Origin: Sedimentisphaerales bacterium
GTDB lineage: Bacteria > Planctomycetota > Phycisphaerae > Sedimentisphaerales > Anaerobacaceae
Reading direction: 5' to 3'
Length of the DNA: 64,000 bases
Assembly: GCA_963708075.1 (NCBI GenBank)
Contig: OY970194.1
Span: forward strand, 6,848,001-6,912,000
Below are positions 39,323-63,535 of this stretch, piece by piece. A program made the position numbers and the translations under genes. Each line of letters begins with the position of its first letter. The stretch's first letter is position 1. The notes under the pieces are model-generated. The model had not been told where the DNA came from. It saw only the letters and a list, made by a program, of their open reading frames with translations, and ran no database searches.

Positions 39323-39881
39323 GATTCGCCCCTCTCAATCACGTTTGATGTTTGATGTTTGATGTTTGATTTCTCAAGTAGGACGGCCTCTCTTACTTCT
39401 CACATCAACCATCATAAATCAACCATGATCATAGCCGCACTATGATCCTTTGTCCATACAGTTGTTCAAAAATCACCAAATTTTTCTGTGCACACGGTAA
39501 CCCCTTTGTGGCACACGGATTAGGAGTCGCTTTGTCCGCAGATTGCACCGATTTTTGCAGATTTCCAGGACGAATCACAAATCCTAATTCGTAAATCGTA
39601 AATCCGATAGGCCACGGAGAGCGCCGAGCCCACGGAGCGGAATATAAGGATGTAGGGTGGGTTCTTAACCCACGCGGATTCTGATCCTCTCACGCAGAGA
39701 CGCCGAGACGCAGAGGGTGGAAGGAGAAGGGAGAAACGCAGGAAGGGAAGCAGGGAAGGAGGTAAGAACTGCCCCATCGGCACTCAGGGATCGGGGATCA
39801 GGGGCCAGAAATGATTGCTCTGCTGAACCCCGGCCCCTGACCCCCGACACCTGCTGGCCATTCCGCCCACAGTAAGGGGTT

Positions 39882-40656
39882 TCAGCCCACTGGCAATGTG
39901 CCATACGCCCCTTTCTTGAACACATAAATCGCCCACCCCAACGTTTCTCGTCCCCACCTCAGATACGCTGTCTTGCTTTCCCGCACTCGTTTCAGCACGG
40001 TTCTCCACATCAGGATCATCCCGATGGCCACTCGCCCAGCTTTCTGCTGCATACCATTGCAACCCTTCATACTTGTCCCAGTCATCTTGGCTGCTTACGA
40101 GTGTGTAGACGGCCTCCAACCCGTGTTCTTGCCCAGCCTTAACATTCTCATCATGTGTTCCGCAGTTGTTCCTTGTCTGGCCGATGGCCTCTAAATACTC
40201 TCTTTCCGGTTCATGCCGCCAGTAGGGTTCACCCACGACGATCCAACTTTCTGGCGCTGCCATCTTGTATAACGCGTTCAACGTCCCTCCATGCCCGCCA
40301 TAAATCCAACTCGCACCGATGCAGGCCACCAGATCAAAACTCTCTAAGGTCTCTGGGACATACTTAGCCCCATCCATCTCTAAGAAGTGGAGTTGAGCAT
40401 CTGGAACGCGTGTTTGGTGCTTTTTGCGGACATCTGCAATGCAGTAAGGAGAGAAATCAACCCCTGTCCCCGTCATTTGTCGGTGCCGCTCTGCGAGCCT
40501 GATGAGAAATTCGCCCTTGCCAGTGGCGATTTCAAGCACGCATGCACCAGGTTTCAGACGCAGAAGCGTGATGAGCTCTTCAAATTTCTCAGAACTCATC
40601 GGGTTGCAGAACACGTGCTCCCGATGCGTGATGTCAAAGAACTTCCACATGTCCAT
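39882..40656 (-). CDS. Class I SAM-dependent methyltransferase, frameshift ~40005
   Basis: RBS GAGGAGG; VLEIATGKGE, GVDFSP, CIGASW; C-terminus YLRWGRETLGWAIY in a second frame; lower GC than flanks. Confidence 0.85.
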
Positions 40657-40751
40657 GAGTTTACCTCCTCTGGCGCATTAACATGCTAAGTGCAACACGG
40701 CTCAGCGATCACGAGCCATCCGGTCGCCTATTCACTTGCGTAGATCTGAAG

Positions 40752-40944
40752 AAACTAGGGACGGACCCTATTTTAGTCGGGGCAATCCGGTTCTTCCAGT
40801 CCGAGTTCTCAAAATCCGACAGCCATCGCACATTTCGGCCTCACCACATCTGTCCGGCCCGTGGGGGCCGGCGACCAACTTGTCGCAGCTTCATCAGAGG
40901 TGCAGAACTGACGGGATTATAGCCCTTGCAGGCATGGTCTGCAA
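40752..40944 (-). ncRNA. Promoter + conserved structured leader + end motif, copy E
   Basis: TTGCAG-N17-TATAAT, then CACCTCTGATGAAGCTGCGACAAGTTGG..GGCCCCCACGGGCCGGACAGATGTGGTGAGGCC, then AAAATAGGGTCCGTCCCTAG. Confidence 0.65.
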
Positions 40945-41035
40945 GAGGGATGTGACAAGTTTGAAGTGTGATGTTTGAAGTGGGAAGTCGGAGGCTCCGC
41001 CACGCCCAGGATTCCATCATTCCAGAGGGAATTCG

Positions 41036-41150
41036 GGGGACACATTACTTATTTGGCAGGAATTAAGTATTGTGTCCCCAGATCCCCGGCAGTGGACATC
41101 TGGGGACACTATACTCAACTCGGGGCGGAGATAGGTGTCCCCGGAATTCC
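41036..41150. repeat. Two miniature inverted-repeat units bounded by GGGGACAC...GTGTCCCC
   Basis: 41036-41079 and 41102-41142; same motif as 62268-62286 and 63000-63029. Confidence 0.7.
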
Positions 41151-41162
41151 GCTGTCATGGCT

Positions 41163-43277
41163 TCAGCTACCATAACCCATCAGTTCGTCATTAGACAACT
41201 CCTTGTTTGGCACAAGTCGGTAATGCTTTTCCTCTTTGATCTTTATTTCTCCCTCGGATAACTCGAATTCGAACATCGCAACTAACTCTCCGTCTACAAA
41301 CTGCGTGGCAATCGGACGGCACTTTATCGCTGGAAATTTCGATTTGCAGATGGCAAGGTCTTGTTCTATCTGGATGATGCCAATCATATCTTTGGCGCCC
41401 TTGGCCTGGATAGGAAAAACAAACTGTTCGCCACTCTTGCTGATACCGATGTACAGTTCGTCGATTTCACCTCCACCCATACCCGGTACAGAGGTCCTTA
41501 GATGGCTCTGGAGCGAATAGCAGGTCACCCCTGTAAAGATGTCTATGAGTCGATTATACCGTACTATCGCCAAAAGGGCCTGCTCGTCGCTCAGTGCATA
41601 CCGCCGGATCACCTCTGGCGTAGCATCAGGTACCTTGATCGTGGACAATCTGGGATTTGGCCTAATCTGGTGCATTGAGGCTTTTGCAAATACGTACTTT
41701 GACCGCCCCACAGATCGTATCACCCACTCCTGGTCTGCATCAAGAAGCTTCCTCATGCTTTCGGGTAACGCACCTCTATACCGGAAGGTGTAGGGAATAT
41801 CGCCAAGATTGAGCGGGACTTCTATGCCCAACTCGCCAGCAGCGTCAACAAACTCCTGCCGCTCGAAGTATACCTCGGTGGCACCCTCCTTGTAGTGCTT
41901 GAAGAACACATGCTCGATGATCTGGGCATAACGAGTGGGGTTTCTCCCTTCCTTTGTCTTCTTTTTCGCCATCTTCTTCTCCCCTGGCCATTCCAGAACC
42001 AAGACTTCTTCACGTAGTTGTTCACCTGTCGCTGTCGATAAACGTGTTCTAAACAAGTCAAGCGAAAGGACTTCGTACCCGATCTCGTGGGCGATATCGG
42101 CCAGAAGCTCTCCCGTGCGGATTAGGACCTGTAGGAATGATGCTTGGTCACCAACAACGTAGGCCAACTTCGCACCAGGTTTCAGGACCCGTTTCATCTG
42201 CTCGAAATGTCGTTTCATTCCGCCAAAGTACAGTTTTGTGACTCGATGGTATAGGCGTTCAAAGCCAGAGTCCTTGTTAAGATCTATGCGCCGCCTCTCG
42301 ATTTCATCTGCAATCGCGTTTATTCTGCGATTGCCTGAGACGGCCAGGTCATCGTCATCACTACGATAGACATTTCGCGTATTGGAACGGAGCAGGCTCT
42401 CTTTAAGCAAACGCAAATCCTGCTTGGATCTTACGAAACCGAGGAGGACACTCTCAAGGCGTGTCGTACGCGTATAGTCCTTCTCATTCGGGTATGGAGG
42501 CGATGTAATCAGTCCATCGACAGAGCCTGGCGGAAGGTCACTAAGCATTTGCCTTGCATCTCCGAGCACACATTTCGCGTCAACGGAGGTAAGAGCCGCA
42601 AACTCTCTGAGGTCGCCAGCCATTTCATTGATCTTGTTCAACCAACTCTCAAGAACAGGCGCGTCAGTCTTCTTGTTGCTCCCTACGCCCACCTCAGGTC
42701 CAAACTTCAGATTGCTCGCAACAAACACTGAAACGAACGCAAATGCTAGCAACTCAATGTTGCGCAGCGATGGATCGCGCCCTCTCTCTATCGCTTCACG
42801 AAGGATGAGACACTTATGGAGTGGGAGCGGACTGATTGAATCCGTAAGAAGCAGATTCTCCTCTTCGCCGGGCAAGGTCCGTCGTTCACCGTTCCATTCC
42901 TCCATTGCGCGGTGCGCGCGTTGAACGACTGCGCCCGCATGCTGAACAAGTCGCTCAGGCTCGACAGACCAGTTTGTTTTCACCTTTGATGCGAAGCATG
43001 CCATAGGATGAGCTTCAACGCCGTAAGCTCTGATCCCATTCTTCTTCGCCTCTACAAGAGTTGTTCCCGTTCCGCAGAACGGGTCCAGAACCAGATGATC
43101 CCGGGTCAGTCCAAAGCGGGAGAAATAGGTCCGCACAAGATGCGGCGGGTAGGACAAGACAAAACGGTACCAATCGTGGAACGCGCGATCCGCGTCTTTC
43201 AACTTGTTGTGACGCAAGTCTTTAGGTGCTAACAATTCTTCCATGAATCCCAGAGCCGTCTGCATTACAGGGTACAC
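41163..43277 (-). CDS. Type II restriction-modification gene: amino-methyltransferase (SPPY, probably m4C) in frame with a PD-(D/E)xK endonuclease
   Basis: DPFCGTGTT, ITSPPY; C-terminal EIDELYIG..FPIQAK; GC lower than flanks. Confidence 0.82.
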   Translation of the reverse strand: MYPVMQTALGFMEELLAPKDLRHNKLKDADRAFHDWYRFVLSYPPHLVRTYFSRFGLTRDHLVLDPFCGTGTTLVEAKKNGIRAYGVEAHPMACFASKVKTNWSVEPERLVQHAGAVVQRAHRAMEEWNGERRTLPGEEENLLLTDSISPLPLHKCLILREAIERGRDPSLRNIELLAFAFVSVFVASNLKFGPEVGVGSNKKTDAPVLESWLNKINEMAGDLREFAALTSVDAKCVLGDARQMLSDLPPGSVDGLITSPPYPNEKDYTRTTRLESVLLGFVRSKQDLRLLKESLLRSNTRNVYRSDDDDLAVSGNRRINAIADEIERRRIDLNKDSGFERLYHRVTKLYFGGMKRHFEQMKRVLKPGAKLAYVVGDQASFLQVLIRTGELLADIAHEIGYEVLSLDLFRTRLSTATGEQLREEVLVLEWPGEKKMAKKKTKEGRNPTRYAQIIEHVFFKHYKEGATEVYFERQEFVDAAGELGIEVPLNLGDIPYTFRYRGALPESMRKLLDADQEWVIRSVGRSKYVFAKASMHQIRPNPRLSTIKVPDATPEVIRRYALSDEQALLAIVRYNRLIDIFTGVTCYSLQSHLRTSVPGMGGGEIDELYIGISKSGEQFVFPIQAKGAKDMIGIIQIEQDLAICKSKFPAIKCRPIATQFVDGELVAMFEFELSEGEIKIKEEKHYRLVPNKELSNDELMGYGS

Positions 43278-43874
43278 CTATCTGTCCCGAATACAACGAG
43301 ACCGGGTCATTGTAGGGCCGTTGCCCCGCTTCCGCAAGCCGCTTACGGGGAATTCCACGCTGACCTCGATTAGTCTCAAGGTGAGGGTCTGGAGCCTTGG
43401 GGCAGGGGAATCAGTGTCCGTGGCTTGGTCTTTTTCCGGTTGTTGGCATGTCAGGCGAGGGTATAATGGCTCATGGCTGGGAGAAATCAGCCGGGGGGGA
43501 AACGGGGTCAGGTCCTGCAATGTGGAATTATTAGGAAGATGTGGTGTGCGGTGCACGCCCTACAGGATTGTGTCTCTCGCGAAGGCGCGAAGGGCAGAGA
43601 GGGTTTCGGGTTGTTAGTTGTTGGTTGCCCATAGGGGAGGTGGGGATATAATGGCTTTGGCTGGGGGCATCAGCAGGCAGAAATCTGCGGCGCCGGGCGA
43701 ATGTGAGGGCGCCTACTGGTGAAGGGCCGAATAATGAGCACGTGTCAGGAGTTGCGGGCCGGTGCAGACGAGGGGACTGGATAGAGGAATTGCATGGACG
43801 AGCTAGGGAAGGTGGAACAACCGGAGGGGCGGGACACGCCGAGCCAAGCTGAGCCGGTGGGCGGCCAGATCCTA

Positions 43875-44049
43875 GGAGGACCGGGGGTCGCACCTGCGCA
43901 CCTACACATTTCACTTTCCGCAAATCTCCGCGTCCTCTTCGGTTCTCACCACAACTGTCCGGCCCGTGGGGGCTGGCTACCAACTTCTCGCAGCTTCATC
44001 AGAGGTGCACAACTGACGGTATTATGGCAGACGCGGGCGGAGGCCGCAA
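43875..44049 (-). ncRNA. Promoter + conserved structured leader + end motif, copy D
   Basis: TTGCGG-N17-CATAAT, conserved core, ends GTGAAATGTGTAGGTGCG(CAGGTGCG)ACCCCCGGTCCTCC. Confidence 0.65.
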
Positions 44050-44059
44050 GCCGAAAGTG

Positions 44060-47489: not shown

Positions 47490-48195
47490 TGAATCTTACC
47501 CCAGAGATTATACCCGCCCCCCGGCCCCGACGCAACACGCCAATTGCCGCCGCCCCCCAAAATTCCGCCGCCCGCACGTGGCAAGGATGCGGCCGCCATT
47601 CGGTGGCGGATTCGGGGCTCCGCGTAGGACGAGCGTCCTCGCTCGTCCTCTTTCGGCTGTGGCCTTGTACAGGATCCAGTCCGTTGCAAGGGCCCGGACT
47701 GGTCGTGCGGGGACGCACGGCCTACGAAGAGGCTCGCCGACTGCCACCGTATTCCGACCACACCCCGTGGCAAGGGCGTCCGGCCCTTGTCTGCAACGGC
47801 AAGAGGGGCGCCGCCGGAGCTTGCCAAGCATAGAGGCCACTCCGCCGCCGGGAAGAGCTCTGCGCGGCCTCCGACCGCAACCAAATCAACTCGCGCAGAG
47901 ACGCCGAGGCGCAGAGATAATGCAACCGCCGATAAACGCGGATGCCGACCCTGTCATTCCTGCGGAAGCAGGAATCCATCTTCTGGGAACTGACAACCCA
48001 CAACTGACAACTGACCATTCTGCCACAGAGGACACGGAGCCCGCAGAGGAAGACTCCAAGAACCGGCAACTGACAACTGTCCTCAATCCGCAATCCCCAG
48101 TCCCTTACTGCCTCCGACTTCTCACTTCGAACATCAAACTTCACACTTGACACTTCCTCCCAATCATAAATCATAAATCATAAATCCCAACGCTC

Positions 48196-48408
48196 TTGCC
48201 TTCTCCGCCTGCCTTCGCCATAATACCGGTAGTTTTGCACCTCTGAGAAAGCTGCGACAAGTTGGTTGGCGGTCCCCATGGGCCGGACTGATGTGGTGAG
48301 GCCGATATGAGTGGGACGGCCATAACGGCGTCAAGGCCGAGGGATAAATGAGACTGAGGAAGGCGGAAATAGGTGACTGTCCCTAGATTCCACCTCTAGA
48401 TTCCACCT
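48196..48408 (+). ncRNA. Promoter + conserved structured leader + end motif, copy C (no cargo gene follows)
   Basis: TTGCCT-N17-CATAAT, conserved core, then AAATAGGTGACTGTCCCTAG and duplicated CTAGATTCCACCT. Confidence 0.6.
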
Positions 48409-51593: not shown

Positions 51594-52028
51594 AAGTCGT
51601 GATCCTCCTGGCCTGCGACAATCAAAACCACCTGCTCCAACGGTTCTCTGTTCAGTAGTGATCCTACCAGCGATTTGGCTCACAATCAAGGCCGGCCATT
51701 CTCCCAATGCCCGGAACCTCACGCCGCCCCCTGATCCCTCTGTCCACCGTCAACTGACAACTGAGAACTGACAACAACTGATCATCTCGCGCAGAGACGC
51801 CGAGGCGCAGAGGATAGTACGTAGGGTGGATTCTCAACCCACGCGGATTCTGATTGTTCGCCACGGAGAGCACCGAGAACACGGAGAACAGAGCATCAAA
51901 GGCGATGGGGGAGGAACGTAGGAAGGGAAGAAGGTAAGGACTGCCCAATCCGCATTCCGCAATCACACGGCCCCGCCGTGCCTTCTCATTCCGCATTCCG
52001 CAATCCGCACTCCGCAATCGGAAGCCTC

Positions 52029-52194
52029 TTGCCGGCCCCGCCCGCGTCTGCCATAATACCGGCAGTTTCACACCTCTGATGAAGCTGCGAGAAGTTGGTC
52101 GGTGGCCCCCACGGGCCGGACAGATGTGGTGAGGCCAAAGAGGACGCGGAGATTTGCGGAAAGTGAAATGTGTAGGTGCGACCCCCGGTCCTCC
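52029..52194 (+). ncRNA. Promoter + conserved structured leader + end motif, copy B
   Basis: TTGCCG-N17-CATAAT, conserved core, ends GTGAAATGTGTAGGTGCGACCCCCGGTCCTCC. Confidence 0.65.
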
Positions 52195-52407
52195 CCGCTA
52201 GCGCTCTGAGTGCCGAGGGCTTTGCCGAGGCCTTTCGACGGTTCGCATCTGATGAGGACGCTTCGCGTGTCCCTCCGGGGACTTTGGCGTCTGTCTTGTG
52301 GAGCGTCGAACGGCTGGGCCGGAGAACCATCACTTTCGACGGGTCACAGTAGCAGGGTGGGCTGTGTCCATCGCTCTTGTCTGAGTACCGGCTACCGCCT
52401 TTTTCCC

Positions 52408-52573
52408 TTGCGGGCCCCGCCTGCTCGTGCCATAATACCGCCAGTTCTGCACCTCTGATGAAGCTGCGAGAAGTTGGTTGCGGGCCCCCACGGGCCGGAC
52501 AGATGTAGTGAGGCCGAAGATGACGTGGGGATTTGCGGAAAGTGAAATGTGTAGGTGCGACCCCCGGTCCTCC
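52408..52573 (+). ncRNA. Promoter + conserved structured leader + end motif, copy A, 17 nt before the next ATG
   Basis: TTGCGG-N17-CATAAT, conserved core, same end motif as copy B. Confidence 0.65.
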
Positions 52574-52590: not shown

Positions 52591-53514
52591 ATGAGCGACA
52601 CAGAACCGAACCAGAACGAGACCACCCTGGGCACGAAGCCTAAGCCGTTCGTCTTTGTGCTGATGCCGTTTGCGAAGGAGTTTGATGATACCTACCAGCT
52701 TGGCATTAAGGCAGCTTGTGAGAAGGCAGGAGCATATGCACAGAGGCTTGACGAGCAGCTATTTAACGAGAGCATGCTGCAACGCATTTACAACCAGATC
52801 GCCAAAGCTGATGTCATTGTGGCAGATATGACTGGCAGGAATCCCAACGTCTTCTACGAAGTAGGGTATGCTCATGCTCTCGGTAAGGTCGTGATCCTGC
52901 TGACGCAGAAGAACGAGGATATACCTTTTGATCTGAAACATTACCGGCACATCGTCTATGAGAATGTGGTTAGTTTACAACCACAACTTGAGACGGCCGT
53001 TCAATGGGGAGTGAAGCAGGCCAGCGGGGAGGCACTGCCTAAACCCCCGATTGCGGTCTATCATGAAGATAGGCCTTTGATTGACAAACCAACTATTGTG
53101 TTCACGCTATACCATCCTAAGACACAGTTGGACCGGTCACGCATTCGATTCTCTTTGACGTACGGCAATATTGATGAAGTAAATACGGTGCGGTGTAGAA
53201 TGGCCATATGGACCTCCAAGCTGTTCCGAACCGCTCAATGGTACGACAACCTGGGTCCGCCGCCTGTGGATGGAGGACCAACAATATATCCAATACTACA
53301 TCCTACTCAACGGAAGATTTTCACTTGTCCAGTGGTCATGTCCTTGCTACCGGAAGAATGGCGATCAGATGTGTTAGTGCTTGGAATGCGAACCGATGAC
53401 CTGAAACATGGTGAGCAGTATTTCACCGAAGATATGGTACTCCGCGTCTCCACACAATCCGGCAGCTATAGCTATCCCTTCACAGCAAGGATCGAGCAGG
53501 ATAAGAAACAATGA
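52591..53514 (+). CDS. Nucleoside 2-deoxyribosyltransferase/TIR-like domain protein with unknown C-terminal domain
   Basis: FVLMPF, ADVIVADMTGRNPNVFYEVGYAHALGK, IPFDL motifs. Confidence 0.8.
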   Translation: MSDTEPNQNETTLGTKPKPFVFVLMPFAKEFDDTYQLGIKAACEKAGAYAQRLDEQLFNESMLQRIYNQIAKADVIVADMTGRNPNVFYEVGYAHALGKVVILLTQKNEDIPFDLKHYRHIVYENVVSLQPQLETAVQWGVKQASGEALPKPPIAVYHEDRPLIDKPTIVFTLYHPKTQLDRSRIRFSLTYGNIDEVNTVRCRMAIWTSKLFRTAQWYDNLGPPPVDGGPTIYPILHPTQRKIFTCPVVMSLLPEEWRSDVLVLGMRTDDLKHGEQYFTEDMVLRVSTQSGSYSYPFTARIEQDKKQ

Positions 53515-54410
53515 TTGCCACAAAGACCGTACTGGTGTTGGGAGCAGGAGCGAGTGCTCCGTATGGATTCCCTACAGGTGGGGCATTGGTCGAACTAATC
53601 GCGAATGATTTTGCATCACCACGATTTGCGAAAGCCGAAAAAGTCATGCCGGAAGGATACCGAATCTTGACAGGCAGACTAAGACAGGCACAACACAATT
53701 CCATTGATGAGTTCCTTGAAAACCATCCATCATTTGCGGACATTGGGCGACAAGCCATAGCACTTCACTTGCTCCCGGCGGAATCCCATTCAGGAGCCAC
53801 CCTGATGGATTTGACCAAGAAGGATCACTGGTACAGATACCTGAAAGGGCAGTTGGGCCCTCTTGGTACATTCGGAAAGAATCAACTCAGGATCATCTCC
53901 TTCAATTACGACAGATCAGTGGAGCACTACCTGTACGAGACTTCGCGGACAAGCGATGAGCGGATCAATGATCAACAGTGTGTGGAGATATTGAAGCAAC
54001 TCCCTGTACTTCATGTCTATGGCAACTTGGGGCCATTACCTTGGCAGTCGCGTATCGGGACCATACCCTATGGTGGTAGTACCCCAGAACCATGTGCAGA
54101 GGAGATTCGACAAGCAGCCATGAACATCAAGATTCTACATCAGGGAACTGATGACGAAGTGCAACAGAATTTTCGGATTGCTCAAGAATGGCTGAAATGG
54201 GCTGAGAGGATCGTCGTTCTGGGCTTCGGATTTCACCACGCCAATGTTGAACGACTCGCACTCACTGAGACGTTTCAAGGCAAAAGAGAAGTTGTAGGTA
54301 CATGTAAAGACTTGGCTCTGACGAACAGGGCGGCTGCTTTACATGTTACTTTCCCCCGACCTGCTGCCGATTGCTACACACTACTGCACGATCATGTTGT
54401 TCTGTTATAG
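53511..54410 (+). CDS. SIR2-like domain protein
   Basis: KTVLVLGAGAS..YGFP, ISFNYDRS, LHVYG, VLGFGFH..N; ATGA overlap with the upstream gene. Confidence 0.85.
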   Translation: MIATKTVLVLGAGASAPYGFPTGGALVELIANDFASPRFAKAEKVMPEGYRILTGRLRQAQHNSIDEFLENHPSFADIGRQAIALHLLPAESHSGATLMDLTKKDHWYRYLKGQLGPLGTFGKNQLRIISFNYDRSVEHYLYETSRTSDERINDQQCVEILKQLPVLHVYGNLGPLPWQSRIGTIPYGGSTPEPCAEEIRQAAMNIKILHQGTDDEVQQNFRIAQEWLKWAERIVVLGFGFHHANVERLALTETFQGKREVVGTCKDLALTNRAAALHVTFPRPAADCYTLLHDHVVLL

Positions 54411-54776
54411 GTGCGAGGGGACAATGGGGGGAATAGAGGGTCACACCTACGGGGGAATAGAGGGTCACACCTACACATTTCACATTCCCGTCATTTCGGA
54501 GGGTAGCCAAATGTATAGAAGGGACCTTCGCGGGGTCACATTGCGAATTAGGAATGATTCCGGAATCGGCTCGCGAACACCCTGGAGTTCGCTGTCCGTC
54601 GTCACTCGGTTTCAGGTTTCTGTGCGAACGGCGCGACTTGCCGGTACAACCGGGAAGGGACGGCAAGTCACGATGGGACAAGAGGCAAGTAGTTGCACAA
54701 TCCGAGTCATTTCTCTATAATGGGCAGGGTGCACGAGGATCAGTCAATGTCAACGTCGAGCGACAAGGGAAACGCC

Positions 54777-58495: not shown

Positions 58496-59443
58496 CTATT
58501 GCAGCAGGGCCTTGAGCTGGCTTTGGAGTTGGCGGTCGGTCTGCAAACGCTGCTCGGCCCGGCGGCAGGCGTGCGAAACCGCTGACTCGCCTACACCGAA
58601 ATGCTCGGCAATCTCGCCCAGGCGAAATCGACCCTGCCGCCACAGCAGGTATATCAGCACCTCCCGCATGGGTCGCTCCCGGTGCCGGATCGGCCGAAGT
58701 AGCGACGCATACTCCTGCGAATCGATCCTCAGCCTGCGGCGGTATTCCGCCAGATGCTCCTGGATCGTCCCATGCGATTGCAGGGCTCGCAACTGGGGCT
58801 TGTCTGGCTCTCGCAGGCCTTGCACACGCTGACGCAGCTCCTCCACCACGGCCTCGCTGCCCAGCACCAGGCCATAGTGCAGGCTCGAAAACAGCTCATC
58901 CGCCCGTTCATCGTATCGCCGCACCGCCTGGCGAAAGCCCCTGGCGTCGAGATCCAATTGCTCGTACACCAGCCGTGCATCAAACCACGCCGGCCCGCCC
59001 CGGCCATACGCCAACGCCCGGTAGCTGCTCCAGCGGTAATCCTCCAGTCGTTCCGCGAGCCTGGCCCGCAGGGGATTGCGATGGATATACAGCAGCAATC
59101 GCTGGAGATACTCGGTCTCTTGAATGAGAAAGCTCTTGAATCTCCCCTGGAACAGGTGCCCGCTTCGCCGATGTCGGCGATTATGCCATGAGCCGTACGC
59201 CACTTGCAGCCACTGCATCGCCGCCGAGAGGTTCGCTTCTTGGGTCTTGACCAGAAGATGATAGTGGTTGCCCATGAGCACATAGGCGTAGATGTCGAGA
59301 GAGAACCGTTCCGAGCACCGGCCCAGTCGGTCAAGAAAGTCCTCGTAGTCGTGCTCATCGCGAAAGATCGCTCGCCGCTCATTGCCGCGATTGAGCACGT
59401 GATAGAATGTATCTTCCTGATCGATGCGTAACGGCCGTGCCAT
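58496..59443 (-). CDS. Y1 HUH transposase (IS200-like/RAYT-like) with C-terminal DnaA-like HTH
   Basis: MARPLR, YHVLNRGN, NHYHLL (HUH), GHLFQGRF, YIHRNP, YRWSSY; LGEIAEHFG..ESAVSH. Confidence 0.9.
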   Translation of the reverse strand: MARPLRIDQEDTFYHVLNRGNERRAIFRDEHDYEDFLDRLGRCSERFSLDIYAYVLMGNHYHLLVKTQEANLSAAMQWLQVAYGSWHNRRHRRSGHLFQGRFKSFLIQETEYLQRLLLYIHRNPLRARLAERLEDYRWSSYRALAYGRGGPAWFDARLVYEQLDLDARGFRQAVRRYDERADELFSSLHYGLVLGSEAVVEELRQRVQGLREPDKPQLRALQSHGTIQEHLAEYRRRLRIDSQEYASLLRPIRHRERPMREVLIYLLWRQGRFRLGEIAEHFGVGESAVSHACRRAEQRLQTDRQLQSQLKALLQ

Positions 59444-59544
59444 GAACAGCAGAGTACAACGTCACGAACGGTGCCGTCAAGCAAATAATTCCTTATTCAA
59501 GACGTGACCCCGTTTCCGCTTTTCATTGTCCGCTCCCCCGTCTA

Positions 59545-60084
59545 TTATAAGCCAATGATTATATACTTGATATAGCATGCAGAACCAAGCCTTTCATTGT
59601 AGAGCAGAAGGTTAGCATCAAGCCAACTCAGACCGACATTGTCCTCTCCCACGTAGTAAGTCTCCCACGCGTCCCATTTCGCCAGATCAAACCAACCCGG
59701 CTGCGGGCGTCCCTCTGTGTACAATTCTATGTCCATGTAGTACTTATCGGTAGTCTTGAAGCGGAGGACTCCTTTGGAATATTGAGCCGCTTCCCATTGC
59801 TTGAACTTTCGTGCAGCAATCAGATGTGACAGGTCCTCCCGGGTAATCAGAAAGCGCAGCACATATGCATGCTCGCGAGATCCGTACAGCCCTATGAGAT
59901 GCGACATCTGGCAGTGGTCCGCTTCAATCCTGTGCACCGACCCTGGAATCGGCTGCACCACGAAACGCCGGAACATGAGTGGTCCATACAGGAAAGACCT
60001 GGTGACAATCAGCGTTACTAATAGAAGCACCGCAATACAGCAGACGGCTCCCACCACGACCGGATGTCGGCATTTCCTAATCAT
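59545..60084 (-). CDS. Putative immunity protein of the adjacent Rhs C-terminus
   Basis: Directly downstream of the Rhs-CT ORF; N-terminal TM helix; low GC. Confidence 0.55.
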   Translation of the reverse strand: MIRKCRHPVVVGAVCCIAVLLLVTLIVTRSFLYGPLMFRRFVVQPIPGSVHRIEADHCQMSHLIGLYGSREHAYVLRFLITREDLSHLIAARKFKQWEAAQYSKGVLRFKTTDKYYMDIELYTEGRPQPGWFDLAKWDAWETYYVGEDNVGLSWLDANLLLYNERLGSACYIKYIIIGL

Positions 60085-60114
60085 GTCCAACGATCCTCGC
60101 AATTTCAACTGCTA

Positions 60115-60890
60115 TTAGGGCACAGTCTGGGGTACGGCCCAAAGCCAACTGCTGCCCGGTAGCGCCTTAGCTGCAGACTCATATATACCCCATTGTCCTC
60201 TGATCACATACGGAGTACCGTTGTCAAACTCCAAATAGCCCATTTTAGCATCATCAAATATGTTCCACATATCAAAGGCATCGCGGAACCAGTCCTCGAA
60301 CCAGAAGTTGAATTTGATGTCAATAGCCCCACTGCCGTCCATGTTGTAAGCAACCACAACCGTCGCGTCTAGATTCAAGTAGCCACGTCCAAGCACCACT
60401 AGATTGTCCAGCCAACTAATATATGGAGGTCCGAAGTTATACAACTTCCTTACATTATGAGGGAATTCCTGGCGCCCGAGTGGCCGGTCGCCCAGTTCTT
60501 CAGCGGAAATCTCCCCATGCCTGTAGCGTGCGGCCCTTGCGAGCCATTCTGCATCCGCTTCGGCAATCTTGTCGAATCGATCGGTAGCCATCTGCCGCAC
60601 CTCGCTGCAGAAATCCCGCACATATTTCTCTATTTGGCGACTTCCCTTAAATACATCAAGCAGACCTGTCTGGGCCAGATCAAGTGTTTCGCCACCTTTA
60701 TTCACATACCACCACCAGAAGTTCTTCTTAGTCCATCGTGACACACTAGCCGGGTCCTCCATTGCTCCAGGAGCGACGAATGCCGCAGGCCATCTGGAGC
60801 CAATCATAACCATCTTCCCATCCCTCTCCTGCCATACAGTCACATCACCTGAAGGATCTAACGCATTCAATGGGCTGTTCGCACAATAGA
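60115..60890 (-). pseudogene. Orphan Rhs C-terminal toxin module
   Basis: Begins YCANSPLNALDPSG (end-of-core DPxG motif) with no core upstream; low GC. Confidence 0.75.
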
Positions 60891-60899
60891 GATCATAGA

Positions 60900-62035
60900 G
60901 GGTCACACCTACACATTTCACATTCATCGCAGTGCTTTAAGGCTCTGTTCGATCTGCGACCAGGCTTCCAGGAGTTTCTTGTCCCGACGAAGCGTCTGCT
61001 CGGCGCGGTCGCGGGCCATCGTCAGGCCACTCAGTGAGATGTCGAAGCGTTTCGCCAACGCGGTCAAGCTCTCTCCCGCTCGGCTGTAGCGGCACACGCC
61101 GTAGATCAGTAGTTGCCTCGCACGGCGGTCCGAGCCGCGCAGCGTCAGCAGGCTCTCCGGCCGGACTCCGCAGTGGCGCCCCACACAGCCGGCCACCGCG
61201 TCAAAAGGAATCGACTGCCGGGCCCGCTCGAACGCCGGCTGCTCTCGCCGATCGGCGTTTCGCGTCAGCACGTAGGTCCGCCGAATGTGGTCAAGGAAGG
61301 TCTCCGTCCCCAGGATCGTCTGGCCCTCCAGTCGGGCCAGCGGGTTGTCCAACTCCCGCAGCAGGCCTTCCTCGACGTACTGGCCATATCGCCGCATCTG
61401 AACGCGTCGGCTCGCCCCCCAGTCCGACAGAAGCGGCCCGGGATCAAACCACTTCGGGCCCGGCGACAAGCCGATGCAGGCTGCATAGCTCGACCAGCCA
61501 AACGCACGCAGCGCCCGCCGTCTGGCCGACACGGACGCCGGCCGCAGTGCCTTGGTCCGGACCGGATTGAGATGGATGTAGCGTGAGACCTCGCCGCCGT
61601 AGGCGTCATTCTCGACCAGATGGGCCGTGAAGCGGCCCTGGAAGACGTGCCCGCGGCTGCGCCGACGGCGGTTGAGGCTGATCGTGAAGCTCGTCAGAAG
61701 GCTCTGCATGAAGCGGCTGAGATTCGCCTGCTCGGTCCGCAGGTACAGATGGAAGTGATTCGGCATGCAGCAGTAACACAACAGCCCCACCTCGAACTGC
61801 CGGCTGAACTGGCCCAGCCGCTCCAGGAACAGCTCATAGTCTCTCGCCTCCGTGAACACGGCCTGCCGCCCATTGCCCCGATTCATCACATGATAGCAGG
61901 CACCCGCATACTCGATCCGCAACGGACGAGCCATACACAGTCTCCTTTCAGACAAGCAGATCTGCAACGTCCGCCAGAATACACCGGACCCGTGGGCCTC
62001 GTCAAGAGCAAATATGAAATGTGTAGGTGTGACCC
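60900..62035 (-). mobile_element. Y1-HUH transposase element bounded by perfect 21-bp inverted repeats
   Basis: GGGTCACACCTACACATTTCA at 60900-60920 and TGAAATGTGTAGGTGTGACCC at 62015-62035. Confidence 0.8.
60924..61934 (-). CDS. Second Y1 HUH transposase (IS200-like/RAYT-like) with C-terminal DnaA-like HTH
   Basis: MARPLR, YHVMNRGN, NHFHL, GHVFQGRF, YIHLNP, WSSY. Confidence 0.9.
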   Translation of the reverse strand: MARPLRIEYAGACYHVMNRGNGRQAVFTEARDYELFLERLGQFSRQFEVGLLCYCCMPNHFHLYLRTEQANLSRFMQSLLTSFTISLNRRRRSRGHVFQGRFTAHLVENDAYGGEVSRYIHLNPVRTKALRPASVSARRRALRAFGWSSYAACIGLSPGPKWFDPGPLLSDWGASRRVQMRRYGQYVEEGLLRELDNPLARLEGQTILGTETFLDHIRRTYVLTRNADRREQPAFERARQSIPFDAVAGCVGRHCGVRPESLLTLRGSDRRARQLLIYGVCRYSRAGESLTALAKRFDISLSGLTMARDRAEQTLRRDKKLLEAWSQIEQSLKALR

Positions 62036-62112
62036 CGTATTCTCTGGAGGACTGGCCCTCCAGGGTCGGTCGGCGAGGGCAGGCGGCAAAGGCGGCAAAT
62101 CGCCCCGGTTTC

Positions 62113-62255
62113 CGCCGCTCATTGCCGCGATTGAGCACGTGATAGAACGTATCCTCCTGATCGATGCGTAAGGGTCGTGCCATGAGCACCAGAGTACAAC
62201 GTCACGAACGGTGCCGTCAAGCAAATAATTCCTTATTCAAGACGTGACCCCGTTT
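62113..62255 (-). pseudogene. Truncated duplicate of the 5' end (end motif, promoter, first ~24 codons) of the 58496-59443 transposase
   Basis: 143-bp near-identical direct repeat of 59373-59515. Confidence 0.85.
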
Positions 62256-62331
62256 ACCCCCCCCCGAGTATTGTGTCCCCGGAACCCGGAGGTGGCTGTT
62301 CCCTGTATACACAAATGCTATATCGCGACTC

Positions 62332-62967
62332 CTACTCTCCAAGGAGCGGGGCAATGCACGTCACCACTTCCTGTGCCTCTGCCAACTCCTTGAGTTGCGG
62401 GTATAACTCTCGCAGTATTGTCGATATCCTTCGATCATTTTGTCTTATGACCAAGCAGAACCGCAAATAGCGAGGCTCCGGTGGGCGCACTGCGGCTGGG
62501 CCATTGGCGATTTGCCCATCATAAGACACTCTGAGTCGTTCGCCTGCCAGTGGCTGGCATGAAAATGACCGTTTCTCCAGACCCTGTATCTGTCCGATTC
62601 TTCTGCGACCTGTTGGGATTAGGAGCCCCTCTGCAAGTCGATATGAAACACGTGGTTCCTGTGTGGCATCGCGCTGCAGACAGAGGATGATTGTCATAGC
62701 CTCTGCGCTCAACTGGCCGCTGCCCTCCCAGCGTAGAATTGCCACAACGCGATCCCGTGATGCGCAATGCCAGCCTTTGAAGTGATAATTGTAGCTTCCT
62801 CCGGGCTCCGAAGACCAAGCTACATTGGGCTTCTTAAATGGCATCTCAACACCCTTGTCACATGATGAGCAGAACAATCCGAAAGAAATCAATACGCCAG
62901 TCATACCATAGACGGCCCTATGCATTGGCATCCTCCACGTCAATTGTCTCAATCTGAAGAACATCAC
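62332..62967 (-). CDS. Hypothetical lipoprotein-like protein, possible orphan immunity gene
   Basis: Hydrophobic N-region ending FCSSC; lies directly after the Rhs core fragment; low GC. Confidence 0.5.
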   Translation of the reverse strand: MMFFRLRQLTWRMPMHRAVYGMTGVLISFGLFCSSCDKGVEMPFKKPNVAWSSEPGGSYNYHFKGWHCASRDRVVAILRWEGSGQLSAEAMTIILCLQRDATQEPRVSYRLAEGLLIPTGRRRIGQIQGLEKRSFSCQPLAGERLRVSYDGQIANGPAAVRPPEPRYLRFCLVIRQNDRRISTILRELYPQLKELAEAQEVVTCIAPLLGE

Positions 62968-63034
62968 AGGTCAAACCTCACTCATTTAGCTCCTGTGGGG
63001 TTCCGGGGACACAGTACTTACAGTACTTATTTCT

Positions 63035-63535
63035 CATAGGATCGTTTCCGCAATACTCGTAGGGATTCGTCCCGTCGCCAGCCGGGTCGGTTTGGAGGCA
63101 TCTTCCGATGTAGGGGTTGTAGTATCTGGCGCGGTAGTAGTACAGGCCGGTGTCGGCGTCGAACTCCCGGCCGGTGAACAGGAAACGGTTCGGATGGTTC
63201 GGATCGCTGGCGCTTGTCTCGCCATAGACGCTGTACTCGTAGAGGTTCACTACCGAGCCTGCGGAGTTCGTCAGGGCTACACAGGAGCCCAGGCCATCGA
63301 AGTGATAGTAGTACGTGGCGTTGCTGTTGGCCACGTCGATCATGCAGATCGGCTGATCCACGCCGGGACCGTAGATGTACTTGTGCAAGAGGCTGTCGCT
63401 GCCGTCGTACTCGGCGATGATGTGCTGGCCATCGTAGAGGTACTTCATCACCGTCTGGCCGTCATAGGCCTTCTCGATCCGCCGCCCGGCCGAGTCATAG
63501 CCGTACGTGCTCGTCAGCCAATCCGTGGTGCCGCT
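63035..63535 (-). pseudogene. Rhs repeat-associated core fragment, cut before its DPxG motif
   Basis: YGYDSAGRRIEK, YYHFDGLGS, FTGREFDADTGLYYYRARYYNP..GR.LQTDP..YEYCGNDP. Confidence 0.88.

What the first reader, a model, noticed from the sequence alone, without database searches (positions are those of the whole stretch)
39790..63535. Candidate integron-like cassette system driven by Y1-HUH transposases
Seen: the 21-bp IR bounding the transposase at 60900-62035 recurs without a transposase at 43885-43912, 52164-52184, 52543-52563 and 54462-54482. Related motifs ending TG(A/T)CCCC occur at 41067-41142, 43501-43533, 59485-59515, 62225-62286 and 63000-63029. These motifs point inward around lower-GC conflict genes: NDT+SIR2 (52591-54410), MTase-REase (41163-43277), Rhs-CT+immunity (59545-60890) and a lone lipoprotein (62332-62967). 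Several cargo blocks follow a conserved promoter-leader. Known: IS200/IS605 TnpA uses subterminal hairpins, not TIRs; RAYTs act on REPs; as I recall, Y1 subclasses with a DnaA-like C-terminus and inverted repeats have been catalogued but have no clear function. Inference: these enzymes capture or shuffle defence and toxin genes at dedicated sites behind a resident promoter, like an integron without IntI or attC.
Basis: partly seen in the sequence, partly recalled or inferred. Interest (0 to 1): 0.9.

Follow-up and report, generated by a model that had tools for sequence, protein, structure and literature searches.

The report
Transposon ends bracketing foreign defence genes
Small, already-named but never bench-tested mobile elements (TIRtrons) have piled up here, and their tips point at imported defence and toxin genes far more often than chance allows, though nothing yet shows that they capture those genes as an integron does.

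Summary
The 21-nt motif occurs 5 times in the window against 0.00 expected and 29 times in the 7.5-Mb genome. The other motifs belong to two more repeat families. The genes between them are a type II MTase-REase, an NDT/TIR-like plus SIR2-like pair, and an orphan Rhs toxin tip.

The two transposases are TIRYTs: RAYT-like Y1/HUH proteins with an HTH tail. Their non-hairpin inverted ends carry the published GGGGWSAS tip, so they are TIRtrons (Di Nocera 2013; Quentin 2018 subclass 2.1). This scan has met that family on other genomes.

What is added here is a test of direction. The GGGG tip of the ends faces 1-5 kb low-GC accessory DNA. For family F1, GC is 0.533 on the outer side and 0.594 on the inner side (p=4e-5). 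At low-GC island borders, 28 ends face inward and 4 outward. Seven islands are bracketed on both sides against 0.67 expected. The bias recurs in a second species (21 of 25 sites).

The cargo lies between the tips of separate elements, not inside one. I found no moved cargo-plus-ends unit and no empty site with F1-type ends, and only 28 of 562 island borders are marked. The strict integron analogy is therefore not supported. A tip-mediated exchange of accessory DNA stays open. The scan found this family before on other DNA.

The parts
60893..62042 (-). T1 TIRtron, a 1150-bp mobile unit: inverted ends at 60900-60920 and 62015-62035, and TIRYT gene T1 at 60924-61934 (336 aa)
   Evidence: A second copy at genome 478624-479773 matches window 60893-62042 at 100%. 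Metagenome contigs stop matching at 60895 and at 62042-62044. Pfam Y1_Tnp E=9e-11. HFH and YIHLNP motifs are read.
58496..59443 (-). T2, the second TIRYT gene (315 aa), 34% identical to T1 over its whole length
   Evidence: Y1_Tnp E=2e-12. Weak tail matches: HTH_28 E=0.012 and Bac_DnaA_C E=0.1, TIGR00362 DnaA E=1.9e-4. Alignment A1. No 3' end repeat was recognised.
59489..59510 (-). F5 end (5' end of T2), GGGG tip facing right toward the Rhs-CT block
   Evidence: sequence
59545..60927 (-). Block between the T2 tip and the T1 tip: orphan Rhs C-terminal toxin ORF 60115-60927, plus a membrane-anchored putative immunity gene 59545-60108
   Evidence: GC 0.508. The ORF starts inside the T1 end (ATGA overlap with the T1 stop), then reads YDLYCANSPLNALDPSG. 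This aligns with NLYAYCGSSPTGRTDPSGL of an intact Rhs in G032. Paralogues of the immunity-like gene lie in the second T1 locus (read by eye).
62112..62250 (-). T2' stump: F5 end 62229-62250, leader, and the first 24 codons of a second T2 copy
   Evidence: D3 repeat 59373-59515 against 62113-62255, 96%; tblastn 100% over 24 aa
62259..62280 (-). F6-like solo end stacked 8 nt beyond the F5 tip, pointing at 62332-62967
   Evidence: sequence; forms an inverted repeat with 62997-63018
62332..62967 (-).
   Evidence: searches gave no family; GC between the ends 0.528
63006..63035 (+). F6 end plus about 10 nt of the 3' end of a third Y1 gene type (T3). It cuts the Rhs core remnant after ...NPYEYCGNDP
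   Evidence: the same 3'-end sequence sits at genome 477840-477872
62978..63667 (-). Rhs core-end remnant, the only one in this genome
   Evidence: TIGR03696 E=9e-19; a single tblastn hit in the genome; no large Rhs gene upstream
52407..52573 (+). D1 promoter-like leader ending in an F1-variant end (52543-52563), tip facing the NDT/SIR2 block
52020..52200 (+). Second D1 plus F1-variant end (52164-52184), in tandem 379 nt upstream
   Evidence: sigma-70-like site at 52029-52057, 9 of 12 matches
52591..54410 (+). Two-gene defence-like block: NDT/TIR-like (52591-53514) and SIR2-like (53511-54410)
   Evidence: GC between the ends 0.496
54421..54482 (+). Solo F1 end (54462-54482) with a 24-nt tandem partial duplicate of its tip, pointing left at the SIR2-like gene
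   Evidence: D10; sequence
41030..41145 (.). Cluster of four F6-type ends. 41037/41063 form a hairpin dimer. The last (about 41128-41145) points at the MTase-REase gene
   Evidence: DNA fold -13.4 kcal/mol, z=-5.25
41163..43277 (-). Type II methyltransferase-restriction endonuclease fusion (704 aa)
   Evidence: PADLOC REase_II E=2e-109, MTase_II E=2.5e-34
43511..43533 (+). F5-like end pointing left at the MTase-REase gene
   Evidence: sequence, read by eye; not caught by the 3-mismatch search
43875..44050 (-). D1 copy ending in a diverged F1 end (43885-43912), pointing left
40834..40948 (-). D1 copy without an end, upstream of SAM-methyltransferase gene 39784-40656
48193..48383 (+). D1 copy of the second version, ending in another GGGGWSAS-type motif (family F7, GGGACAGTCACCTATT)

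Best explanation
What it is (near certain). The region is a pile-up of TIRtrons. These are small mobile elements made of one RAYT-like Y1/HUH 'TIRYT' transposase gene with an HTH tail, framed by non-hairpin terminal inverted repeats whose outer tip is GGGGWSAS. Their gene-less offspring are also present: hairpin dimers, a 260-bp miniature element, solo ends and 5' stumps. At least four enzyme/end families coexist in this genome.

Where the cargo sits (shown). The defence and toxin genes are not inside these elements. Each block lies between the outer tips of two separate elements or remnants.

How it most likely works (inferred, about even odds). The elements settle in accessory DNA, and their tips are the breakpoints at which accessory DNA is gained, lost or swapped. 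A Y1 nick leaves a 3'-OH upstream and a 5'-phosphotyrosine downstream. DNA lying between two facing tips is therefore chemically as excisable and insertable as the element itself. Recombination between the many repeated ends would give the same result. Either way, ends are left at island borders with the tip toward the foreign DNA.

It is not an integron analogue. There is no dedicated site behind one promoter, no direct repeats and no uniform cassette orientation.
For: Family:
- Y1_Tnp matches and near-cutoff REP_Tyr_transpos matches.
- HUH and Y---NP motifs are invariant in alignment A1.
- The ends do not fold (-0.6 to -1.5 kcal/mol, z about 0).
- The tips GGGGTCAC, GGGGACAC and GGGGTCAG fit the published GGGGWSAS (PMC3733652, passages read).
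- 62 of 80 relatives from many phyla have inverted ends of at least 16 nt, and 40 fit a strict GGGWSAS pattern near the tip.

Mobility of T1:
- Two copies match at 100% over 1150 bp, with unrelated flanks.
- Contigs of three runs diverge exactly at the ends.

Offspring:
- Genome copy numbers are 29 F1, 24 F4, 9 F5 and 17 F6.
- Pairs less than 300 nt apart are 7 outward, 8 tandem and 1 inward.

Direction:
- F1 outer 1 kb has GC 0.533 against inner 0.594. 18 of 29 outer sides are below 0.54, against 2.9% of genome windows (Wilcoxon p=3.8e-5).
- 19 of 20 true F1 solos have outer GC below inner GC (counted).
- GC steps down at the end itself.
- At the 562 borders of 281 low-GC islands, 28 ends face inward and 4 face outward.
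- 7 islands are marked on both borders against 0.67 expected (0 of 20,000 permutations reached 7).
- 37 of 79 ends lie within 350 nt of a border, against 5.2% of random positions.
- Neighbours 300-5000 nt apart are 11 inward, 5 tandem and 3 outward. The 3 outward pairs enclose TIRYT genes.

Replication:
- Mixed relatives: 18 of 25 usable sites, p=0.003.
- Species G032: 21 of 25 usable sites, p=0.0008.
- Inner flanks of relatives' sites match this genome in 35 of 60 cases and outer flanks in 15 of 59 (Fisher p=4e-4).
- Across phyla, near flanks are lower in GC than far flanks in 47 of 76 cases (p=0.008).

Swapped content between kept flanks:
- T1 end, then toxin/immunity genes, then T2 end occurs at two loci of this genome with different genes.
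- Rhs core, then cargo, then F5 end and T2 spans 1.38 kb in G032 and about 1.36 kb in a metagenome contig. Here it spans 3.56 kb.
- One orthologous gene has an F4 end upstream here and an F1-like end in G032. Orientation is the same and the outer DNA is unrelated.

Cargo nature:
- 14 of 48 ORFs scanned have Pfam families. Most of these are conflict genes: Fic, PIN_12, HEPN, DUF4238 twice, XhoI plus a methylase, DUF4145 and HD-CE.
Against: - No cargo-plus-ends unit was found at two places.
- The one duplicated cargo gene (DUF4238, 95% identical) has no ends at its second site.
- No abutted facing F1 ends (empty sites) appear among the F1 sites listed for 24 genomes. In this genome the only inward pair under 300 nt apart is two F6 ends 24 nt apart at window 41063/41103, which I did not examine further.
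- Only 28 of 562 island borders are marked, and 31 of 79 ends lie far from any island.
- Family F4 shows no asymmetry (0.566 against 0.563; one of its inner values is an artefact of the contig start).
- About 11 F1 solos have no recognised partner.
- 4 of the 7 doubly marked islands lie in two element-rich loci, so clustering inflates that count.
- Both flanks of full T1 copies are low in GC. Plain insertion into accessory DNA explains that.
- Close strains were not available. Same-genus genomes are about 75% identical with little synteny.
- No biochemistry exists for any TIRYT.
Confidence: 0.5

Rival explanations
1. Passive accumulation. TIRtrons insert wherever single-stranded, AT-richer, dispensable DNA tolerates them. 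Later deletions that start inside an element and run out through accessory DNA to the first indispensable gene leave one end at the border, tip toward what is left of the island. The enzymes play no part in gene gain.
For: - Full T1 copies and the miniature elements have low-GC DNA on both sides.
- 11 of 79 ends lie inside islands.
- Stumps of varying length exist: T2' with 24 codons, a T1 3' piece of 63 aa, and T2 pieces of 45-104 codons.
- Across phyla the genes sit in slightly lower-GC DNA.
- Most islands have no end.
Against: - Most solos keep only the roughly 33-nt end and nothing of the interior. Random deletion endpoints would not give that.
- Islands marked on both borders are about ten times more frequent than expected.
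- Ends of different families stack in tandem, all pointing at the same block: 5284885/5284977/5285077, 62229/62259 and 43885/43511.
Confidence: 0.28
2. Homologous-recombination exchange. The repeated elements and ends, together with the conserved Rhs core, serve only as portable homology. Incoming DNA that carries the same repeats replaces what lies between them, as in Rhs C-terminal displacement or neisserial minimal mobile elements.
For: - The Rhs core, cargo, F5 end and T2 arrangement is kept in G032 and in a metagenome contig, with different content.
- The two Rhs pieces in the window overlap in the core-end motif, so they come from two different genes.
- The F1 motif occurs in 23 of 24 genomes of the genus.
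Against: - Solo ends offer only about 33 nt of homology.
- Brackets often combine ends of different families.
- Sites are mostly not shared between species. Few relatives' inner flanks map next to an end in this genome.
Confidence: 0.12
3. This is an integron-like platform in which the Y1 enzymes insert promoterless cassettes at dedicated sites behind a resident promoter.
For: - D1, a promoter-like leader that ends in an F1-type or F7-type tip, points into at least five low-GC blocks: 52407, 43875, 40834, genome 2913892 and genome 2898340.
- One D1 copy has a sigma-70-like site.
Against: - No tyrosine recombinase was found among the 19 ORFs scanned.
- The repeats are inverted and come from mixed families.
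- Cargo lies on both strands.
- Only 4-5 of about 11 D1 copies carry the F1 end, and one D1 copy points into the 3' end of a native gene.
- No array of like-oriented cassettes exists.
- The end-encoded start codon gives a long ORF reading into low-GC cargo at only one F1 site, the window's Rhs-CT. One other long frame reads into native high-GC DNA (29 sites examined).
Confidence: 0.06
4. The solo ends are binding sites kept by selection. The HTH tail of a TIRYT would bind them as boundary or regulatory marks around foreign genes, so they would not be scars or active recombination sites.
For: - The 21-nt motif is conserved across species that share only about 75% DNA identity.
- G032 has 30 copies, but its best T1-like match is only 38% identical.
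- At one possibly orthologous site the end is 31 nt and 94% identical while its surroundings no longer align.
Against: - Continuing transposition also keeps ends identical.
- Most sites are lineage-specific.
- No expression or binding data exist.
Confidence: 0.04

Closest known systems
TIRtron / TIRYT (Di Nocera, De Gregorio and Rocco 2013, BMC Genomics 14:522, PMC3733652, passages read). Equated with TnpA-Y1 subclass 2.1 by Quentin et al. 2018, PMC6006769, passages read.
   Same: A RAYT-like Y1/HUH gene longer than RAYTs, with an HTH tail. It is flanked by inverted repeats with the GGGGWSAS motif. The repeats also form dispersed families of single, dimeric and grouped copies. Several families occur per genome; the paper names R. 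baltica as rich in them.
   Different: In the passages I searched, neither paper uses the words island, cargo or passenger, or reports a link between end orientation and accessory DNA. Here that link is quantified. Tandem stumps and stacks of ends from different families are also not described in those passages.
REPtron (RAYT gene flanked by REP/REPIN hairpins)
   Same: A related Y1 enzyme. The gene is flanked by inverted copies of a short repeat that is also dispersed between genes.
   Different: REPs are GTAG-tagged hairpins. F1 and F5 ends do not fold. REP families are reported as restricted to core genome regions (PMC3733652, Discussion passage), whereas these ends sit at accessory borders. 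The T1 unit is itself multi-copy and mobile.
IS200/IS605 (TnpA-Y1, peel and paste)
   Same: The HUH/Y1 catalytic core, and no target duplication seen by eye at the T1 ends.
   Different: IS200/IS605 has subterminal hairpins and asymmetric ends with no inverted repeats. Here the ends are inverted and do not fold, and the enzyme has an extra HTH tail.
Integron (IntI, attI, attC, Pc)
   Same: Short repeats delimit single-operon blocks of adaptive genes. A promoter-like repeat precedes some blocks.
   Different: No IntI. The repeats are inverted and heterologous. There is no ordered array, no common orientation and no demonstrated cassette mobility.
Composite transposons and one-ended capture by HUH elements (IS91/ISCR, Helitrons); comparison from my own knowledge
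   Same: Cargo lies outside the element proper, next to an element end. Genome 5813027-5815670 is a miniature-element, cargo, miniature-element composite.
   Different: Most brackets use solo ends or ends of different families, so there are no intact outer ends to move the whole. No moved copy was seen.
Rhs orphan C-terminal toxin/immunity arrays
   Same: A core-end remnant, an orphan toxin tip starting in the core-end motif, and immunity-like genes downstream, interleaved with mobile elements.
   Different: The main rhs gene is gone from this genome. The break points in both Rhs pieces are joined directly to TIRtron tips.

Membership tests
TIRtron / TIRYT | RAYT-like Y1 core: HUH motif and Y---NP tyrosine motif | tested here: met
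   Pfam Y1_Tnp: T1 E=9e-11, T2 E=2e-12. NCBIfam REP_Tyr_transpos 66.5 and 75.2 bits, below the cutoff of 80. N59 H60 H62 and Y119 I120 H121 N123 P124 are invariant in A1.
TIRtron / TIRYT | Gene flanked by terminal inverted repeats instead of REP hairpins | tested here: met
   T1: 35-nt arms, 86% complementary, which do not fold. For T2 only the 5' end was found, so this is met for T1 and inconclusive for T2.
TIRtron / TIRYT | GGGGWSAS motif in the repeat | tested here: met
   GGGGTCAC (F1, F5), GGGGACAC (F6) and GGGGTCAG (F4) at the outer tip. The same tip occurs in relatives from many phyla.
TIRtron / TIRYT | Repeat belongs to a dispersed family (single, dimer, group) | tested here: met
   29, 24, 9 and 17 copies of the four families. 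The reversed-pattern control gave 0 in all 24 genomes.
TnpA-Y1 subclass 2.1 (Quentin 2018) | C-terminal HTH resembling Bac_DnaA_C, HTH_23 or HTH_28 | tested here: inconclusive
   T2: HTH_28 E=0.012, Bac_DnaA_C E=0.1, TIGR00362 DnaA E=1.9e-4 at residues 259-314. T1: no HMM match, but its tail aligns with that of T2. No structure was predicted.
Integron | IntI-type tyrosine recombinase next to the array | tested here: not met
   None among the 19 ORFs of 39.8-63.7 kb scanned against Pfam, or the 12 scanned against NCBIfam.
Integron | Cassettes each ending in an attC, in direct orientation, behind attI and Pc | tested here: not met
   Flanking repeats are inverted and of mixed families. Cargo lies on both strands. 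D1 is a dispersed repeat, not one resident promoter.
Integron | Cassette excision and insertion as circles | not testable with these tools
   Only assembled contigs of metagenome runs were on offer, with no raw reads of this organism.
IS200/IS605 | Subterminal hairpins, no inverted repeats | tested here: not met
   The ends are inverted repeats and do not fold.
REPtron (RAYT/REP) | Flanking repeats are GTAG- or CGTC-tagged palindromes | tested here: not met
   F1 and F5 are not palindromic. A separate GTAG-type hairpin repeat exists in the genome (31 copies), but no copy lies within about 2 kb of the classical 188-aa RAYT gene. The TIRYT genes were not checked for it.
Composite transposon | Cargo between two complete elements, and the whole found at more than one site | tested here: not met
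   One miniature-element, cargo, miniature-element unit exists (genome 5813027-5815670). No second copy of any bracketed block with its ends was found. The only duplicated cargo gene lacks ends.
Rhs polymorphic toxin, orphan module | Start within the conserved core-end motif (…DPxGL), followed by a variable tip and an immunity gene | tested here: met
   YDLYCANSPLNALDPSG against NLYAYCGSSPTGRTDPSGL in the intact G032 gene. The core remnant matches TIGR03696 at E=9e-19. The immunity role of 59545-60108 is inferred from position only.

The most novel reading that the evidence does not exclude
TIRYT ends are two-sided docking sites. Y1 nick-and-join chemistry is symmetric, so any DNA lying between two facing tips is an excisable and insertable cassette that carries no repeat of its own (an 'inverse peel-and-paste'). 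TIRtrons and their solo ends would then form a dispersed gene-capture platform for defence and toxin genes, across the many phyla that share the GGGGTCA tip.
Probability: 0.2. Interest if true: 0.85.

Novelty: new member of a known kind. Interest (0 to 1): 0.55.

Why it matters
TIRYTs are one of the largest Y1/HUH subclasses. Quentin 2018 (passage read) found subclass 2.1 in 14.9% of strains, and 547 of 604 candidate stretches here encode relatives. Yet no function or biochemistry is known for them.

A reproducible, orientation-specific link between their tips and the borders of short defence and toxin islands gives the field a concrete hypothesis to test: what the ends do, where they are cut, and whether DNA between facing tips is exchangeable. 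If the link is causal, it would be a new route by which bacteria shuffle immune and toxin genes. If it is passive, the ends are still a handy marker for recently acquired DNA.

Tried and rejected
- Synteny at the window locus. In 30 relatives only the sulfatase gene matched, at about 75% identity, so no empty-site test was possible.
- Empty site at genome 1.745 Mb. The apparent short allele in G005 was a paralogous prepilin-type N-terminus, not an orthologue.
- Expression. No RNA holder was listed.
- Read cover. The cargo bins 52611-54413 and 59823-60423 had no cover in runs X2-X4. A missing cover is not evidence. Most joints listed there fall in other repeats and come from other organisms.
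- D1 as a structured RNA. No Rfam match, a weak consensus fold, and z=-0.5 against shuffles.
- Start codon inside the end as a general expression signal. It gives a long ORF into low-GC cargo only for the window's Rhs-CT. One other long frame, at 5815650, reads into native DNA (29 F1 sites).
- Target duplications at the T1 ends. None seen by eye.
- 'Solos derive from the 3' end of T1'. This rests on a single base (CATTC against CATTT), so I dropped it.
- Shared solo site in G032:C26 and genome 6699621. The distance to a conserved gene is similar, but the 1.1 kb in between does not align, so orthology is unproven.
- Two frame slips. The T1 translation and the Rhs query were in the wrong frame.
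- Not done: replichore or strand bias of the ends, structure prediction, and complex prediction.
- Literature. Three searches and term look-ups in the two key papers found no report of TIRYT ends at island borders. The supplements of those papers were not opened and may list the repeats' positions.

Full report
**Observation.** The 21-nt motif TGAAATGTGTAGGTGTGACCC lies at 52164, 52543, 54462, 60900 and 62015. That is 5 matches at up to 3 mismatches, against 0.00 expected in 100 shuffles. The pair around 60924-61934 is a 35-nt inverted repeat. The copy at 43885-43912 is diverged, with an 8-nt internal duplication. F5 lies at 59489 and 62229, with an F5-like copy near 43511. F6 lies at 41037, 41063, 41103 and 63006, with F6-like copies near 41128 and 62259. 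The enclosed DNA has GC of 0.50-0.53, in a genome that averages 0.604.

**Genes.**
- T1 (60924-61934, 336 aa) and T2 (58496-59443, 315 aa) match Pfam Y1_Tnp. They also match NCBIfam REP-associated tyrosine transposase just under its cutoff.
- Both have HUH (HFH, HYH) and YIH-NP motifs.
- T2's tail gives weak HTH_28, Bac_DnaA_C and DnaA matches. T1's tail aligns with it.
- The blocks between the motifs are a type II methylase-endonuclease fusion, an NDT/TIR-like plus SIR2-like pair, an unassigned 211-aa ORF, and an orphan Rhs toxin tip with a downstream membrane protein.
- The toxin ORF begins inside the T1 end, with its ATG overlapping the T1 stop. It then reads YDLYCANSPLNALDPSG. This aligns with the end of an intact Rhs gene in relative G032.
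- 62978-63667 is a core-end remnant, the only one in this genome. No large rhs gene lies upstream.

**Known family.** Di Nocera et al. 2013 (PMC3733652, passages read) named RAYT-like genes flanked by inverted repeats 'TIRYT' and the units 'TIRtrons'. They gave the shared motif GGGGWSAS and noted that some such repeats form dispersed families of single, dimeric or grouped copies. Quentin et al. 2018 (PMC6006769, passages read) placed most TIRYTs in TnpA-Y1 subclass 2.1, with Bac_DnaA_C, HTH_23 or HTH_28-like tails. The tips here (GGGGTCAC, GGGGACAC, GGGGTCAG) fit that motif. The F1 and F5 ends do not fold as single strands, unlike IS200/IS605 ends or REPs. This scan has filed the same family on at least eight other genomes.

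**Census in this genome** (7.52 Mb, one contig).
- End copies: F1 29, F4 24, F5 9, F6 17. Two other frequent GGG-words are internal parts of ordinary insertion sequences and were set aside.
- Y1 genes: T1 twice plus a 3' piece; T2 once plus stumps; a 328-aa gene with F4 ends plus a truncated twin; two genes of about 240-260 aa; one classical 188-aa RAYT.
- T1 is a discrete 1150-bp unit. The second copy matches window 60893-62042 at 100% with unrelated flanks. Contigs from three metagenome runs stop matching at 60895 and at 62042-62044.
- The G-rich tip is therefore the outer terminus of the mobile unit.
- Short pairs agree with this: of 16 neighbours under 300 nt apart, 7 are outward, 8 tandem and 1 inward. 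The outward ones are hairpin dimers or a 260-bp miniature element.

**Direction test.**
- For the 29 F1 copies, the 1 kb beyond the tip has mean GC 0.533. The 1 kb on the other side has 0.594. 18 of 29 outer sides fall below 0.54, a value reached by 2.9% of random 1-kb windows (Wilcoxon p=3.8e-5).
- F5 (n=9) gives 0.546 against 0.594. F6 (n=17) gives 0.544 against 0.574 (p=0.07). F4 (n=24) shows nothing, and one of its inner values is an artefact of the contig start.
- After removing copies that flank T1 or belong to the miniature elements, 19 of 20 solos have outer GC below inner GC (counted; one-sided sign test about 2e-5, hand calculation).
- For 24 F1 ends outside T1 units, the profile steps from 57-59% to 52-53% at the end itself.
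- I segmented the genome into 281 low-GC islands (at least 700 nt, 5.2% of the genome). Of 562 borders, 28 carry an inward-facing end within 350 nt and 4 an outward-facing one.
- 7 islands are marked on both borders against 0.67 expected (0 of 20,000 permutations reached 7).
- 37 of 79 ends lie at a border against 5.2% of random positions. 11 lie inside islands and 31 elsewhere.
- Neighbours 300-5000 nt apart are 11 inward (GC between them 0.50-0.56), 5 tandem and 3 outward. The 3 outward pairs enclose TIRYT genes.

**Replication.**
- The F1 motif occurs in 23 of 24 genomes of the genus. A reversed control gave 0 in all.
- In loci from mixed relatives, 25 of 34 sites had enough flank. GC was 0.577 outer against 0.615 inner, with outer lower in 18 of 25 (p=0.003).
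- In species G032, which has 30 copies but no T1-like match better than 38% identity, 25 of 28 sites were usable. GC was 0.551 against 0.598, with outer lower in 21 of 25 (p=0.0008).
- Inner flanks of relatives' sites find a match in this genome in 49 of 65 cases, and outer flanks in 18 of 59. Requiring at least 200 nt and dropping 5 hits to T1 gives 35 of 60 against 15 of 59 (Fisher p=4e-4). The inner side is shared genome and the outer side is accessory.
- Inward pairs of 1.3-2.2 kb recur in G013 and G032.
- Across 80 loci from many phyla, 62 have inverted ends of at least 16 nt, nearly all starting with a GGGGTCA-like tip. Near flanks are lower in GC than far flanks in 47 of 76 cases (0.479 against 0.495, p=0.008).

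**What the low-GC blocks hold.** I scanned 48 of 66 ORFs of at least 100 aa. I left out 18 that lay in the 300-nt pads or overlapped longer ORFs. Another 10 ORFs, from four blocks that I had not fetched as loci, were also not scanned. 14 of the 48 have Pfam families: Fic, DUF4926+DUF2971, DUF4238 twice, PIN_12, a methylase with XhoI, DUF4145, two FGE-sulfatase genes, DUF5343 with HEPN, HD-CE, and a sub-cutoff methylase. Relatives' blocks are mostly unassigned. DUF2971 recurs.

**Anatomy of 58.3-63.7 kb, read on the minus strand.** The order is:
1. Rhs core remnant, cut after NPYEYCGNDP by an F6 end that still carries about 10 nt of the 3' end of a third Y1 gene type.
2. The 211-aa ORF.
3. An F6-like solo end, stacked 8 nt beyond an F5 end.
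4. The F5 end with its leader and 24 codons of a T2 copy.
5. 66 nt of unknown origin.
6. The T1 unit.
7. The orphan Rhs tip and the immunity-like gene.
8. The F5 end and full T2.

The two Rhs pieces overlap in the core-end motif with different codons, so they come from two different genes. The ends that bracket a block are not a matched pair. The NDT/SIR2 block has a D1-type F1 variant on one side and a T1-type end on the other. Elsewhere F1 pairs with F4, F5 or F6.

**Kept flanks, different content.**
- At genome 477-482 kb the same order recurs: T1, F1 end, small ORF and two paralogues of the immunity-like gene, F5 end, T2 remnants. T1 is identical at both loci but the genes between are only distant paralogues (read by eye).
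- In G032 an intact Rhs end is followed by 1.38 kb of low-GC DNA, and then an F5 end facing it with a T2-like start.
- A 2826-nt contig of run X4 joins T2 plus its F5 end to the Rhs core across about 1355 nt. Here the distance is 3560 nt.
- One orthologous gene (79% aa identity) has an F4 end 261 nt upstream in this genome and an F1-like end 376 nt upstream in G032. Orientation is the same and the DNA beyond is unrelated.

**Against capture.**
- No bracketed block with its ends was found at a second site.
- The DUF4238 gene of one bracket has a 95% identical copy at genome 1335178-1336142. That copy has no ends at its borders and sits behind a D1-like leader.
- No abutted facing F1 ends appear in the listed matches of 24 genomes. 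In this genome the one inward pair under 300 nt apart is two F6 ends 24 nt apart at window 41063/41103. It could be an empty site, but I did not follow it up.
- Only 28 of 562 island borders are marked.
- 4 of the 7 doubly marked islands lie in two element-rich loci.
- Full T1 copies have low-GC DNA on both sides, as plain insertion into accessory DNA would give.

**D1.** One copy has a TTGCCG-17-CATAAT site. All aligned versions end in a GGGGWSAS-type tip pointing downstream, either the F1 variant or a further family F7 with 12 copies. D1 points into five low-GC blocks, and once into the 3' end of a native gene. It has no Rfam match and no convincing fold.

**Mechanism.**
- Shown: element identity, T1 mobility, the outer position of the tip, the derivative forms, and the oriented association with accessory DNA.
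- Inferred: a Y1 nick leaves a 3'-OH upstream and a 5'-phosphotyrosine downstream (established for IS608; from my own knowledge). Two nicks on one strand therefore release whatever lies between them, whether that is an element or the spacer between two elements. DNA between facing tips could thus be excised, inserted or replaced, and solo ends could stay active in trans. I give this tip-mediated turnover, including repeat-mediated recombination at the tips, about even odds.
- Rivals: passive accumulation with deletion trimming (0.28); pure homologous exchange (0.12); the strict integron-like model (0.06); a boundary-site role (0.04).
- Stacks of same-direction ends from different families suggest repeated events at the tips. 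So do the tandem 5' stumps, such as seven F5 ends within 900 nt in G010 and the repeated T1 5' pieces in G033. They do not say which process produced them.

**Verdict.** The elements are members of a known, uncharacterised family. The integron reading is not supported as stated. The oriented bracketing of accessory genes is real, reproducible, and not reported in the two key papers as far as my searches reach. Close strains, raw reads and biochemistry are what is missing.

Noticed in passing
window 52020-52200, 52407-52573, 43875-44050, 40834-40948, 48193-48383; genome 2898340, 2913892, 3495710, 4013247, 5609951, 6546799: D1 is a repeat of about 115 nt. It starts with a sigma-70-like promoter and always ends in a GGGGWSAS-type tip pointing downstream, in two versions. 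It has no Rfam family and no significant fold. It often sits upstream of low-GC operons.
   Followed up: partly
L129 (G010:C120) 4993-5868; G033:C53 4105-4861 and G033:C34 487448-488201: Tandem arrays of 5' stumps (end, leader, and the first 45 or so codons) sit beside full TIRYT genes. Seven F5 ends lie within 900 nt in G010, and repeated T1 5' pieces occur in G033. A smaller case is the 24-nt tip duplicate at window 54421-54474.
   Followed up: partly
window 39652, 44309, 44436, 44532, 51821, 55543: A GTAG-tagged 30-nt hairpin repeat (a classical REP type) has 31 copies in the genome, 6 of them in this window. No copy lies within about 2 kb of the classical 188-aa RAYT gene at genome 3442017-3442580.
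   Followed up: partly
window 38405-38448 (-) and 38255-38300 (+): Two Acido-Lenti-1 RNA matches (41.7 and 36.4 bits; gathering score 37) lie in inverted orientation just left of the region.
   Followed up: no
window 47415-47489 (-): A tRNA gene (66.6 bits) lies inside a long plus-strand ORF that is probably spurious. It lies between the two low-GC parts of the region, and no integrase was seen nearby.
   Followed up: no
window 56183-57757 (+): A 524-aa protein has an excisionase-type HTH_17 domain and four 42-nt tandem repeats that encode an acidic stretch (56628-56837). It sits between the SIR2-like block and T2.
   Followed up: no
genome 1335178-1336142 against 1746266-1747230: A DUF4238 gene is duplicated at 95% identity between two loci. 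The shared stretch runs only from the ribosome-binding site to just past the stop codon.
   Followed up: partly
genome 5813027-5815670 (L026): Two identical 260-bp miniature F1 elements flank two FGE-sulfatase genes. This is the only composite-transposon-like unit seen.
   Followed up: partly
G032: This species has 30 F1 ends, but its best T1-like match is only 38% identical. Either the ends outlive their enzyme, or the gene is missing from the fragmented assembly.
   Followed up: no
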